A stretch of DNA of 63,486 nucleotides from an uncultured Staphylococcaceae bacterium (GTDB taxonomy: Bacteria > Bacillota_I > Bacilli_A > RFN20 > CAG-826), in contig CAZSMV010000003.1 of assembly GCA_964608215.1 (NCBI GenBank), positions 1-63,486 on the forward strand. The letters are read 5' to 3'. The notes beneath the pieces are model-generated. The model did no database searches and had not been told where the DNA came from. It worked only from the letters and a program-made list of their open reading frames with translations. Positions within the stretch are counted from its first letter, which is position 1, and the number at the start of each line of letters is the position of its first letter. Shown one piece after another: positions 43,295 to 43,499 of the stretch. A program made the translations under genes and the position numbers.

Positions 43295-43499
43295 CATTTA
43301 GATTAAACGAACTCACTCATTCTAGGTCGGAAGCAACATTTTTCTTTACAAGATTAAATCCCGCAGCAAAAGGGCAGCGTTGCTTTTCCGTAAGATAAAA
43401 GCAAGCCTGCTCCTATCTACTTAGGCTTAGCCATTAACTCAAGAAACATAACTTAATTATACTTGAGCAAAAGAAAAACCCTATTATTAGGGTAAAAAA
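43295..43499 (-). mobile_element. Orphan copy of the IS110 5' non-coding end (~205 bp), without transposase
   Basis: Near-identical direct repeat of 48042-48242, differing by about ten substitutions and one 4-nt indel. Confidence 0.85.

What the first reader, a model, noticed from the sequence alone, without database searches (positions are those of the whole stretch)
43295..43499. Orphan bridge-RNA end that terminates exactly at its donor-guide: possible self-generated mini-IS110
The ~205-bp copy keeps the left end and the whole first (target-binding-like) loop. It stops one base after AATCTAAAT, the segment that in the full element mimics the right-end terminus TATCTAATT. Because a donor guide is by design a copy of the donor DNA, the recombinase could mistake this internal DNA for a right end and mobilise a MITE-like left-end-only element (inference). 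The putative target guide differs (UGCCCUUUUGCUGC vs UGGCCUUUUU) and does not match this copy's own flank. Such solo loops could also act in trans as alternative target-specifying RNAs.
Basis: partly seen in the sequence, partly recalled or inferred. Interest (0 to 1): 0.75.

Follow-up and report, generated by a model that had tools for sequence, protein, structure and literature searches.

The report
Truncated IS110 bridge-RNA end relic
The 205-bp sequence is a real leftover of a second RNA-guided (IS110-type) insertion sequence, sitting at the far edge of a 4.9-kb "dead IS plus cargo genes" insertion, and nothing found here shows that it ever moved on its own as a mini-element.

Summary
Window 43296-43499 (minus strand) is a 94-95% copy of the first ~205 nt of the IS110-family element at 46683-48236, and it breaks off one base after AATCTAAAT. 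It keeps the left-end hairpin, the 5' stem-loops, the whole target-binding loop and the 5' strand of the donor-binding loop.

The context changes the reading. Sister strains (99.3% identical) have the csp terminator directly next to ychF. The solo is therefore the distal edge of one 4.95-kb insertion, made of a pseudogenised IS110, a 3.2-kb HTH/DUF4417 cargo cassette and the left-end fragment.

The two left-end copies diverged as functional bridge-RNA genes, because every stem substitution keeps pairing. The solo's target guide fits the csp terminator (4/5), not its present left flank (2/5).

The MITE-like reading is not supported:
- The window holds only these two copies.
- About 26 relatives run past this point, and none ends there.
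- Another partial copy ends elsewhere.
- Among about 12,190 E. coli IS621 copies, at most 3 could end at the donor guide.

The junction overlaps the native flank by 6 bp (AATGGG) and is 3-5 nt out of register for conservative recombination. Best reading: a relic of an expanded IS110 locus, truncated by microhomology joining. Recombination guided by the donor-guide mimic remains possible (about 0.2).

The parts
43296..43499 (-). Solo left-end (LE) fragment: T-run (43494-43499) plus LE nt 1-~200 of an IS110-family element. It is the 5' two-thirds of a bridge-RNA gene.
   Evidence: 94-95% identical to 48043-48242. CM hit at 43295-43446, 143.5 bits, E=1e-30.
43478..43493 (-). LE hairpin ACCCTAATAATAGGGT followed by TTTTCTTTT. 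It looks like an intrinsic terminator and is conserved at the left end of all family members.
   Evidence: Terminator scan; family alignment.
43363..43377 (-). Left-target-guide (LTG) coding segment of the solo, CTGCCCTTTTGCTGC. It carries a TGC duplication that is absent from the L100 allele.
   Evidence: Occupies the variable 5' strand of the target-binding loop. Across the family, LTG co-varies with the left flank.
43349..43362 (-). Internal hairpin of the target-binding loop (GGGATTTAATCTTG).
   Evidence: Helix 5, 100% paired across 20 relatives. The solo has one G-U wobble.
43339..43348 (-). Right-target-guide (RTG) coding segment TAAAGAAAAA, identical in both copies.
   Evidence: The reverse complement of the RTG matches the right flank in relatives.
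43296..43304 (-). AATCTAAAT, the 5' strand of the donor-binding loop (putative left donor guide, LDG). It is invariant in the family.
   Evidence: Position analogous to the LTG, directly 5' of the second internal hairpin. Matches the right end plus core, TATCTAATT, at 7/9.
43293..43298 (-). Breakpoint window AATGGG. This sequence is shared by the IS-internal consensus (AATCTAAATGGGAC) and the native ychF-proximal flank (AATGAG/AATGGG).
   Evidence: Empty sites L090, L092, L093 and L096 read ...GTGGTCTTTTTT|AATGAGTTTTTAGC. Relatives shown.
43500..46682 (-). Cargo 'X', 3.2 kb. The core cassette (43980-46467) comprises a divergent HTH (Cro/CI-type) regulator, a 65-aa ORF, a DUF4417 protein, and ORFs of 126, 137 and 109 aa. 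Unique flanking pieces of 215 and 480 nt surround the core.
   Evidence: Pfam and PHROGs scans. 84-87% DNA homologues sit in other contexts without any IS. Absent from empty-site strains.
46683..48236 (-). Full-length but dead IS110-family element ('IS1'), running from LE ACCC at 48236 to RE ...TTATCTAA at 46683.
   Evidence: 77.6% identical over 1562 nt to an intact relative. Ends defined by the family alignment.
46766..47951 (-). Transposase pseudogene. The start codon is ATA instead of ATG, there is a frameshift near codon 38, and there are three in-frame TAG stops at positions where relatives have Q, E and Y.
   Evidence: Translation; Pfam PF01548 and PF02371; alignment to 395-aa relatives; the less-decayed allele L099 shares two of the stops.
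48042..48189 (-). 5' part of IS1's bridge-RNA gene: stem-loops, target-binding loop and LDG strand. Its LTG is CTGGCCTTTTT.
   Evidence: CM hit of 156.3 bits. The LTG matches the csp terminator flank TGGCCTTTTT 10/10.
48237..48262 (-). Left target: csp intrinsic terminator GACCACCTAGAGTGGCC plus a T7 run, which abuts IS1's left end.
   Evidence: Sequence. The same pattern, a GC hairpin plus T7-8, precedes almost every family copy.
43160..43292 (-). Native right flank: a hypervariable spacer, then the conserved hairpin GGTTATTTCTTATTAGAAACAACC and the ychF promoter/RBS.
   Evidence: Contiguous with the csp terminator in empty-site strains.

Best explanation
The 205 bp is not a self-standing mobile unit. 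It is the truncated remnant of a second IS110-family copy ('IS2'), lying at the far edge of an old 4.95-kb expanded or composite IS110 insertion. The layout is: csp terminator | dead IS1 | 3.2-kb HTH/DUF4417 cargo cassette | left-end fragment | ychF.

Shown:
- The family inserts just after intrinsic terminators, under bridge-RNA guidance.
- The whole block is an insertion relative to sister strains.
- The fragment keeps the 5' stem-loops, the complete target-binding loop and the 5' (LDG) strand of the donor-binding loop. It lacks the donor-loop hairpin, the right donor guide, the 3' half of the terminal stem, the transposase and the right end.
- It came from a sister copy that diverged under selection for RNA structure and was programmed for the csp terminator.

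Inferred:
- IS2 (or its left-end part) once sat directly at the csp terminator with the native ychF-side flank on its right.
- IS1 plus cargo later came to lie between the terminator and IS2's left end. This could have happened by re-insertion at the retained left-target half-site, or by Campbell-type recombination within the first ~52 identical nt of the left end.
- The rest of IS2 was lost, or never completed, through a microhomology-mediated join at AATGGG between IS position ~200 and the first bases of the native flank.
- On this reading, the coincidence with the donor-guide segment is incidental.

The relic is probably inert today. IS1's recombinase gene is dead in every allele seen.
For: Empty sites:
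- L090/L095, L092, L093 and L096 are 99.3% identical in the flanks and lack the block.
- Ten more empty sites come from a sister lineage.
- The occupied allele appears in independent assemblies (L094/L102/L136, L103, L104).

Family identity:
- Pfam DEDD_Tnp_IS110 and Transposase_20; 395-aa relatives.
- Bridge-RNA helices: 98% of cells paired against 39-47% in slid controls, and 8 pairs with compensatory changes.
- LTG matches its own left flank 3.1/5 on average, against 1.7/5 for other loci's flanks; permutation p<5e-5. RTG matches the right flank.

The solo's guide:
- 2/5 against its present left flank, 4/5 against the csp terminator.
- Its left flank is the only one in the survey with no recognisable GC-rich hairpin ahead of the T-run.

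Divergence of the two copies:
- All five stem substitutions keep pairing: one compensatory A-U to G-C change and wobble-preserving transitions. The other differences lie in loops or in the guide.

Junction:
- 6-bp overlap AATGGG.
- The in-register product would read AATCTAA-(A/T)T-(TT)AATGGG, whereas the sequence reads AATCTAAATGGG.

No recurrence. IS621 census: 12,191 places just 5' of the donor guide against 12,188 just 3' of it. A perfect 9/9 copy of the right end plus core inside the transposase gene (47285-47298) was not used.

Age: IS1 occurs at a single locus, and two nonsense mutations are shared by diverged alleles.
Against: - A random deletion would rarely remove the right end completely without taking any native base, and rarely start inside a 9-nt guide segment. 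The clean boundary suggests a site-specific step somewhere in the history.
- AATGGG occurs three more times in the IS1 body, once as the 7-mer AATGGGT. Microhomology alone therefore does not single out this position.
- The spacer next to the junction is hypervariable, with several indels relative to the empty sites, so the true ancestral target in the lineage where the event happened is unknown.
- The in-register product AATCTAAATAATGGG would need only one AAT slippage to give the observed sequence. A 3-nt slippage polymorphism (TGC) is visible in this very fragment.
- No haplotype with a full IS2, or with the left-end fragment alone at the csp terminator, was recovered. L100 is ambiguous: it could be a recombinant or an assembly chimera.
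Confidence: 0.55

Rival explanations
1. Event guided by the donor-guide mimic. The DNA that encodes the left donor guide is a perfect match for that guide. The recombinase used it as a pseudo right end (LD'). This could have worked in two ways. Either it excised a ~205-bp left-end circle (RD...LD') that then inserted at the csp terminator, or it recombined LD' with the true right junction (a DBL-DBL, LD-only half-match) and deleted the rest of IS2. A later AAT slippage, or an unknown ancestral spacer, would account for the 3-nt offset.
For: - The predicted cleavage point (after AATCTAA-AT) lies inside the 6-nt breakpoint window.
- The native flank resumes within 0-3 nt of the canonical crossover at the T-run.
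- The block as a whole has a true RD on the left, an LD-like end (6/7) on the right, and sits at a target matching IS1's LTG 10/10.
- Excision of IS621 needs only the donor arms, and half-matches suffice (bioRxiv 10.64898/2026.08.31.748434).
- Boundaries of partial or tandem IS110 modules are enriched for LD-only matches (bioRxiv 10.64898/2026.08.14.744561).
- A precise, in-register 72-bp left-end-only insertion that ends at its own target guide plus core exists downstream of znuB in E. coli.
Against: - The junction is not in register with any known empty site; it is 3-5 nt short.
- No second example among about 26 family copies, nor in 0.5 Mb of related loci.
- At most 3 of about 12,190 IS621 copies could end at the donor guide.
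- The guide's core positions (AU) differ from the real core (TT).
- The sequence similarity of LD' to the right end (7/9) is at chance level.
- The solo's present left flank is not a target.
Confidence: 0.2
2. Unequal recombination between two left-end copies. On this reading the csp-ychF spacer, even in 'empty' strains, is itself a decayed left-end remnant from a much older insertion. The solo's end was formed by misaligned pairing between CTAAAT in the donor-guide segment and CTAAAT in the left-end hairpin loop (ACCCTAAATATAGGG) of that remnant.
For: - The spacer aligns collinearly with left-end positions ~7-60, for example AATGAGTTTTT..GCTTAAGT..AATATT-TTATG against AATATAGGGTTTTT..GCTCAAGT..AATATTGTTATG.
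- Anchored alignment gives p=0.03-0.1 against shuffles and 0.007 against random window 46-mers.
- Left ends always begin exactly at this position, after a terminator T-run.
- The spacer is hypervariable among lineages.
Against: - Local-alignment tests are not significant (p=0.13-0.8).
- The lineage-B spacer shows no similarity.
- AT-rich, low-complexity sequence inflates such matches, and several tests were run.
Confidence: 0.1
3. Domesticated trans-acting RNA. The solo is kept because it expresses a target-loop-only RNA that redirects, or titrates, a bridge recombinase encoded elsewhere in the genome.
For: - The target-binding loop and all 5' helices are intact in the solo, including a compensatory G-C pair that is unique in the family.
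- Bridge RNAs can work in trans (PMC11208160).
Against: - No sigma-70-like promoter was found upstream on the minus strand.
- The 3' half of the terminal stem is missing.
- The guide carries a recent 3-nt duplication and matches no nearby site.
- The only recombinase gene of this lineage in the database is dead; the next best proteins are 75% identical.
- The structure-preserving substitutions are explained equally well by divergence before truncation.
Confidence: 0.05
4. Assembly artefact: a chimeric join of repeat copies in a metagenome assembly.
For: - Several contigs break inside the left end (L097, L098, L101).
- L100 could be a chimera of the two copies.
Against: - The full block with both junctions is present in the window and, at 99.98% identity, in an independent ENA assembly (L094/L102/L136).
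- L103 spans IS1, the cargo and the solo's left junction at 100% identity.
- The two copies differ at 8 positions plus an indel, so they are not collapsed repeats.
Confidence: 0.02

Closest known systems
IS110-group bridge-RNA elements (IS621 type; Durrant 2024 PMC11208160, Hiraizumi 2024 PMC11208158)
   Same: - DEDD/Tnp recombinase.
- Non-coding RNA gene in the left end, upstream of the transposase.
- Two internal loops. The 5' strand of each loop has the sense of the left half-site, and the 3' strand is complementary to the right half-site.
- Guides co-vary with the flanks.
   Different: - The target is the T-run of intrinsic terminators, not REP sequences.
- The core lies in a T-run.
- The left end carries its own terminator-like hairpin.
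- No Rfam family matches.
- The copy under study is a 205-bp fragment, and its neighbour is a pseudogene.
Expanded IS110 loci with cargo and partial or tandem modules (Hu et al., bioRxiv 10.64898/2026.08.14.744561)
   Same: - One insertion site holds an IS110 module, DNA acquired downstream of the transposase, and a duplicated partial IS110 module.
- Boundaries carry at most one-sided donor matches. Here the right boundary is LD-like (6/7).
- Empty sites exist in close relatives.
   Different: - The cargo is a small chromosomal HTH/DUF4417 cassette, not plasmid or AMR DNA.
- The two modules are 5-6% diverged sister copies, not a recent duplication.
- The element is dead.
- The LD-like boundary is the guide-coding DNA itself, a case that paper does not describe.
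MITEPpu9 / ssr9 module of ISPpu9 (Pares-Guillen et al., NAR 2025, PMC12288879)
   Same: A non-autonomous, small-RNA-containing module derived from an IS110-family element. It can form its own circles and occurs unlinked to the transposase.
   Different: - MITEPpu9 has duplicated copies of both end boxes (A'/B') and eight copies at REP targets.
- The solo here has only the left end, a single copy and no target on its left side.
72-bp IS621-like left-end relic downstream of znuB in E. coli (found here)
   Same: A left-end-only remnant of a bridge-RNA gene that ends at a guide-coding segment and abuts the native right target half.
   Different: - It ends at the target guide plus CT core, not at the donor guide.
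- It is exactly in register (LT-CT-[72 bp]-RT, with a contiguous empty site in most genomes).
- The rumen solo is 3-5 nt off register and shows a 6-bp overlap.
Ordinary truncated IS copies (deletion relics)
   Same: Single copy, adjacent to a pseudogenised full copy, no intact recombinase, with microhomology at the breakpoint.
   Different: The deletion removed the right end exactly, with no loss of native DNA, and it starts within a functional guide segment. That is an unusually clean outcome for a random deletion.

Membership tests
IS110 family, IS110 group (bridge-RNA elements) | DEDD (RuvC-like) N-terminal domain plus Tnp C-terminal domain recombinase | tested here: met
   For the neighbouring full copy only: PF01548 (E=7e-12) and PF02371 (E=1e-18) on the conceptual translation, 75% identity to intact 395-aa proteins. 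The gene is a pseudogene. The solo itself carries no coding sequence.
IS110 family, IS110 group (bridge-RNA elements) | Structured non-coding RNA gene in the left end, upstream of the recombinase, containing a target-binding internal loop | tested here: met
   Five helices, 98% of cells paired against 39-47% in slid controls, 8 pairs with changes on both sides, 0/500 shuffles reach the observed value. Both window copies match the CM over its full length.
IS110 family, IS110 group (bridge-RNA elements) | Target guides match the flanking half-sites: LTG has the sense of the left flank, RTG is complementary to the right flank | tested here: met
   Family: own 3.1/5 against cross 1.7/5, p<5e-5; RTG 3-5/5 in 8 of 11 loci (two at 1-2 of 4, and IS1 3/5). 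IS1's LTG matches 10/10. The solo scores 2/5 against its present left flank and 4/5 against the csp terminator.
IS110 family, IS110 group (bridge-RNA elements) | Donor-binding loop whose guides match the right-end/left-end junction | tested here: inconclusive
   The segment UUUAAUCUAAAUG is invariant, so no covariation can be measured. Its assignment as the left donor guide rests on position and a chance-level 7/9 match. The 3' strand UAAAAA can pair with TTTTTA at the left end. The closing stem shows limited covariation (L115 and L121 against the rest; read by eye from the alignment).
IS110 family, IS110 group (bridge-RNA elements) | Circular intermediate with a right-end/core/left-end junction | not testable with these tools
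   Contigs of about 1,570 nt are consistent with a 1.56-kb repeat unit. No circle junction was recovered.
   Two CM hits in the window: the solo and IS1. No further truncated copy among 62 hits in 0.5 Mb of loci. Scans: genome collection, metagenome collection, viral collection. The other partial copy ends at nt ~363.
   The left flank TAACA-T6 has no recognisable GC-rich terminator hairpin and scores 2/5 against the guide. The right flank is the native half-site but is 3-5 nt out of register.
   The only copy of this sublineage is a pseudogene in every allele seen. The rest of the genome lies outside the window.
Expanded IS110 locus (Hu et al. 2026 preprint) | IS110 module plus extra DNA occupying one insertion site, relative to an empty site in close relatives | tested here: met
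   4.95 kb lie between the csp terminator and ychF, against a 188-bp intergenic region in L090, L093 and L096.
Expanded IS110 locus (Hu et al. 2026 preprint) | Duplicated full or partial IS110 module in direct orientation | tested here: met
   Direct repeats 43296-43499 and 48043-48242.
Expanded IS110 locus (Hu et al. 2026 preprint) | Internal or outer boundaries that carry one-sided (LD-only or RD-only) donor matches | tested here: inconclusive
   The outer right boundary AATCTAA matches the left donor arm at 6/7, but that level is common by chance. The cargo boundaries abut true right-end and left-end termini.

The most novel reading that the evidence does not exclude
Guide-coding DNA inside a bridge-RNA gene is a built-in cryptic recombination half-site, because it is perfectly complementary to the guide it encodes. 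In this element the recombinase used the donor-guide-coding segment as a pseudo right end. That produced a left-end-only module (terminator hairpin plus target-loop RNA gene) bounded by RD and LD', which now forms the distal end of a cargo-carrying composite. The precise 72-bp E. coli relic that ends at its own target guide would be the sister case. Together they would define a self-mimicry route to truncated or mini IS110 modules and to locus expansion.
Probability: 0.2. Interest if true: 0.65.

Novelty: new member of a known kind. Interest (0 to 1): 0.35.

Why it matters
As it stands this is an IS relic, so its direct importance is modest. It does give three useful things.

1. A well-supported new IS110 subfamily from rumen and gut Bacilli/Erysipelotrichaceae-like MAGs. 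Its bridge RNA is programmed for intrinsic terminators, and both target guides can be read directly against the flanks.

2. A natural, polymorphic example of an 'expanded' IS110 locus carrying a small HTH/DUF4417 cassette, with empty sites available for comparison.

3. A concrete, testable question for bridge-recombinase biology and engineering: can the DNA that encodes a guide be attacked by its own RNA-protein complex? The E. coli census suggests this is rare for the donor guide and has happened at least once for the target guide. If it is real, it bears on off-target and self-target design rules for bridge editors.

Tried and rejected
- **Rfam:** no bridge-RNA family matches. The only hit is a sub-threshold match to Va-907 (E=0.015).
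- **First DNA pattern (CCTAGAATGAGTGAGTTCG):** it lay in a variable stretch and found nothing.
- **Cargo in genome, plasmid, phage and viral collections:** no match. PADLOC hits only the HTH protein.
- **In-situ duplication of IS1's left end followed by neutral decay:** rejected, because every stem substitution preserves pairing, including one compensatory pair.
- **Recombinase-compatible histories:** every one I worked through (by reasoning, not computation) needs either a pre-existing left-end fragment next to the native right flank or a later deletion of a second IS body. No single conservative event reproduces all four junctions.
- **The donor-guide/right-end pair as the best imperfect direct repeat for slipped mispairing:** rejected. 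The best match of the hypothetical right junction is to the left-end hairpin, not to the guide segment.
- **ychF-upstream spacer as a left-end relic:** not significant by local alignment, marginal by anchored alignment. Kept only as a low-probability rival.
- **L149:** it looked like a possible solo, because it hit the donor-guide pattern without a protein hit. It is a full intact copy.
- **L122:** its contig ends 5 nt after the guide segment, but the sequence continues into the normal hairpin.
- **L100 as proof of a full IS2 at the csp terminator:** it cannot be told apart from gene conversion or an assembly chimera.
- **Longer contigs for the L099 allele:** none exist.
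Full report
**1. The observation**

The window is 28.5% G+C. It appears to use the standard genetic code: a 936-aa ORF reads through with TGG tryptophans and no TGA.

The repeat finder and a pairwise alignment show that 43296-43499 is a direct repeat of 48043-48242, at 94-95% identity with a 4-nt indel. Read on the minus strand, both copies begin TTTTTT(T)ACCCTAATAATAGGGTTTTTCTTTTGC. The guide-like segment differs as described: CGCTGCCCTTTTGCTGCGGG in the solo against CGCTGGCCTTTTTGGG in the long copy.

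**2. What the repeat belongs to**

The long copy (46683-48236, minus strand) encodes an IS110-family recombinase: PF01548 and PF02371, 75% identical to many intact 395-aa proteins.

The gene is dead. ATA stands in place of the start codon, there is a frameshift near codon 38, and three in-frame TAG codons sit where relatives have Q, E and Y. A second allele (L099) keeps the ATG and the reading frame but shares two of the stops and has its own frameshift. The gene was therefore already inactive before these strains diverged. This sublineage occurs at one locus only in the protein-indexed collections.

Relatives fetched from rumen and gut MAGs and metagenomes define the ends. The left end is ACCCTAAATATAGGG... 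and the right end is ...TTATCTAA, followed by T's. In almost every copy the left end is preceded by a GC-rich hairpin plus 7-8 T's, that is, an intrinsic terminator.

**3. The bridge RNA**

An alignment of 20-21 relatives gives the following features:
- a terminal stem (UUCUUGG/CCAAGAA);
- two 5' stem-loops;
- an internal loop closed by CGGA/UCCG and ACAACG/UGUUGU, with a central hairpin.

On the named structure, 98% of cells pair against 39-47% when partners are slid. Eight pairs show changes on both sides, and no shuffle reaches the observed covariation.

The 5' strand of this loop has the sense of the left flank. Own-flank matches average 3.1/5 against 1.7/5 for other loci's flanks, permutation p<5e-5. 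The 3' strand is the reverse complement of the right flank, for example L004 AUAAGAAA/TTTCTTAT and L109 GAAUGAAAA/TTTTCATTC. This is the LTG/RTG logic established for IS621 (PMC11208160).

The second loop has the same layout: a 5' strand UUUAAUCUAAAUG, a hairpin GGGACUUGAUCUC with compensatory changes, and a 3' strand ...UAAAAAAC. It is invariant, so its role as donor loop is inferred by position. UAAAAA can pair with TTTTTA at the junction. AAUCUAAAU matches the right end plus core, TATCTAATT, at 7/9, but that level is expected about once by chance in 300 nt. Rfam has no model for this RNA.

**4. Anatomy of the solo**

The solo retains the left-end hairpin, both 5' stem-loops, the complete target loop and the 5' strand of the donor loop. 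It lacks the donor-loop hairpin, the right donor guide, the 3' half of the terminal stem, the recombinase gene and the right end.

Relative to IS1, every substitution in a helix keeps pairing. One is a compensatory A-U to G-C pair that is unique in the family, and three are wobble-preserving transitions. The remaining differences are in loops or in the guide. The two copies therefore diverged as working RNA genes. The solo is not a decayed duplicate of its neighbour.

**5. Context: the key result**

Contigs encoding the identical YchF and Csp proteins show strains in which the csp terminator is followed directly by the ychF upstream region...GACCACTTAATGTGGTCTTTTTT|AATGAGTTTTTAGC... (L090/L095, L092, L093, L096). 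Flanks are 99.3% identical to the window. Ten further empty sites come from a sister lineage.

In the window, and in independent assemblies at 99.98-100% identity (L094/L102/L136, L103, L104), 4.95 kb lie between these points:
- IS1;
- a 3.2-kb segment 'X';
- the solo.

X's core (43980-46467) is a divergently transcribed HTH regulator plus a DUF4417 operon. It recurs at 81-87% DNA identity (the regulator part at 81%) in other genomic contexts without any IS, next to AbiEii, AAA_21, a HinfI-family restriction-enzyme gene and an Ntox50 paralogue.

The solo's 'end' is therefore the right boundary of the whole block.

**6. The four junctions**

- **B1 (csp terminator | IS1 left end):** canonical. 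IS1's LTG matches TGGCCTTTTT 10/10.
- **B2 (IS1 right end | X):** a true right end. The RTG matches the flank 7/9 overall, 3/5 in the specific part. This is weak, but better than the match to the native flank (0-1/5).
- **B3 (X | solo left end):** a true left end, but the flank (TAACA-T6) has no recognisable GC-rich terminator hairpin and scores 2/5 against the solo's LTG. The same guide scores 4/5 against the csp terminator.
- **B4 (solo | native flank):** the sequence reads ...AATCTAAATGGGTTTTTATTGC. Relatives read AATCTAAATGGGAC internally, and the empty sites read TTTTTTAATGAGTTTTTAGC. The two partners therefore overlap by AATGGG.

From the T-run counts of three loci I infer a donor junction TCTAA-TT-TTTACCC. 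A conservative, in-register event at the pseudo right end would then give AATCTAA-(A/T)T-(TT)AATGGG. The observed junction is 3-5 nt shorter.

Divergence from the empty sites is concentrated in the 20 nt to the left and about 45 nt to the right of the block. The spacer is hypervariable among lineages, so the exact ancestral target is uncertain.

**7. Tests of the 'mini-IS110' idea**

- **Copy number.** The covariance model finds only the two copies in the window. In 0.5 Mb of related loci it finds no further internally truncated copy.
- **Family survey.** About 26 distinct copies continue past AATCTAAATG into the donor-loop hairpin.
- **Other partial copy.** L118/L135 ends at about nt 363, in the transposase gene.
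- **E. coli census of IS621.** The 74 nt just 5' of the donor guide occur at 12,191 places. The 74 nt just 3' of it occur at 12,188 places. Left ends that stop at the donor guide are essentially absent.
- **Better mimic unused.** A perfect 9/9 copy of the right end plus core lies inside IS1's transposase gene (47285-47298) and was not used.
- **Microhomology is not unique.** AATGGG occurs three more times in the IS body. The best imperfect repeat of the hypothetical right junction is with the left-end hairpin.

**8. What keeps the idea alive**

The block has a genuine RD on one side, an LD-like end on the other, and no loss of native DNA. That is cleaner than a random deletion would give.

Published and preprint work provides three relevant points:
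- IS621 excision needs only the donor arms, and half-matches drive recombination.
- Expanded IS110 loci accumulate cargo and partial modules whose boundaries are enriched for LD-only matches.
- An IS110-family MITE (MITEPpu9) exists.

While running the census I found that at least 563 E. coli genomes lacking IS621 (about 800 places in all) carry a precise 72-bp insertion at the CT core of the REP downstream of znuB. It consists of the IS621-type left end up to and including its own target-guide-coding segment plus CT: LT-CT-[72 bp]-RT. The empty site is contiguous in most other genomes. This is what an aberrant excision using guide-coding DNA as a pseudo left target would leave. It is in register, unlike the rumen solo.

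**9. Verdict**

Identity and context are secure, at about 0.85-0.9. The sequence is a relic left-end/bridge-RNA fragment forming the distal edge of an old, polymorphic, cargo-carrying IS110 locus, and it is probably inert.

The mechanism of truncation is not settled. My estimates are:
- about 0.55 for a microhomology (AATGGG) join, either an internal deletion of a second copy or an abortive, one-ended insertion resolved at the cleaved target;
- about 0.2 for an event directed by the donor-guide mimic;
- about 0.1 for unequal pairing with an older left-end remnant, for which support is marginal;
- small values for a domesticated RNA or an assembly artefact.

Noticed in passing
E. coli loci L152 (NZ_CP103562.1, 1487-1558 of the locus) and L153; not in the window: At least 563 E. 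coli genomes that lack a full IS621, including ST131 (about 800 places in all), carry a precise 72-bp insertion at the CT core of the REP downstream of znuB. It comprises the IS621-type left end plus bridge-RNA nt 1-47 plus its own target-guide-coding segment and CT, followed directly by the right target half. The empty site is contiguous in most other genomes. It looks like an aberrant excision that used guide-coding DNA as a pseudo-target.
   Followed up: partly
window 48237-48262 and all family loci: This IS110 subfamily inserts immediately after intrinsic terminators (GC hairpin plus T7-8). It carries its own terminator-like hairpin (ACCCTAAATATAGGGTTTTT) at the left end, so transcription termination would be restored after insertion.
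   Followed up: partly
L119:1380-1700; L118/L135: In L119 one copy's right end abuts another copy at left-end position ~20, just after the left-end hairpin's T-run, and the expected hairpin is missing. L118/L135 also starts at about position 19. The left-end hairpin and T-run may itself act as a pseudo-target or an alternative left boundary.
   Followed up: no
window 43160-43292 and L090, L154-L163: The 40-55-nt spacer between the csp terminator T-run and the conserved hairpin GGTTATTTCT-N4-AGAAATAACC is hypervariable among otherwise near-identical lineages. Three unalignable or indel-rich versions were seen. It shows marginal collinear similarity to IS left ends (p=0.03-0.1; 0.007 against random 46-mers).
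   Followed up: partly
window 46766-47951 (minus strand): All three in-frame stops in the long reading frame of the transposase pseudogene are TAG, derived from CAG, GAG and TAY codons. There is no frameshift over about 330 codons. Two of the stops are shared with the L099 allele.
   Followed up: partly
window 47285-47298: The palindrome ATTAGATATCTAAT inside the transposase gene contains a perfect 9/9 copy of the right end plus core (TATCTAATT). Relatives have 8/9 at the same place.
   Followed up: no
window 43980-46467; L137-L146: A cassette made of an HTH regulator and a DUF4417 operon (220, 126, 118-137 and 109 aa) recurs in different genomic contexts. Neighbours include AbiEii/DUF6088, an AAA_21 ATPase, a HinfI-family restriction-enzyme gene and a paralogous HTH-DUF4417-Ntox50 module. 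This suggests a mobile toxin/immunity or defence-type cassette of unknown function.
   Followed up: partly
window 43533-43680 (minus strand, approximate): A small hydrophobic ORF of about 49 aa (MKAGPASGSLLKNILSSSLVVIWIIKKSLFNLKIFIIKIYIAVMGHRF) lies in the unique 480-nt piece between the cassette and the solo. It ends about 30 nt before the solo's T-run.
   Followed up: no
window 10640-22310: Three tandem paralogous gene segments, spaced by about 5.6 and 3.9 kb and 65-85% identical to one another, dominate the repeat list. They probably belong to a family of large surface or secreted proteins.
   Followed up: no
window 48046-48157 (minus strand): The only Rfam signal on the bridge RNA is a sub-threshold hit to the Vibrio sRNA Va-907 (20.5 bits, E=0.015). 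That family might itself be an IS110-type RNA.
   Followed up: no
L100 (Logan SRR11880813, 1330 nt): This contig joins the csp terminator to a solo-type left end (guide CCCTTTTGCGGG, lacking the TGC duplication) and then continues into the IS body. It is either gene conversion between the two copies, an ancestral full 'IS2', or an assembly chimera.
   Followed up: partly
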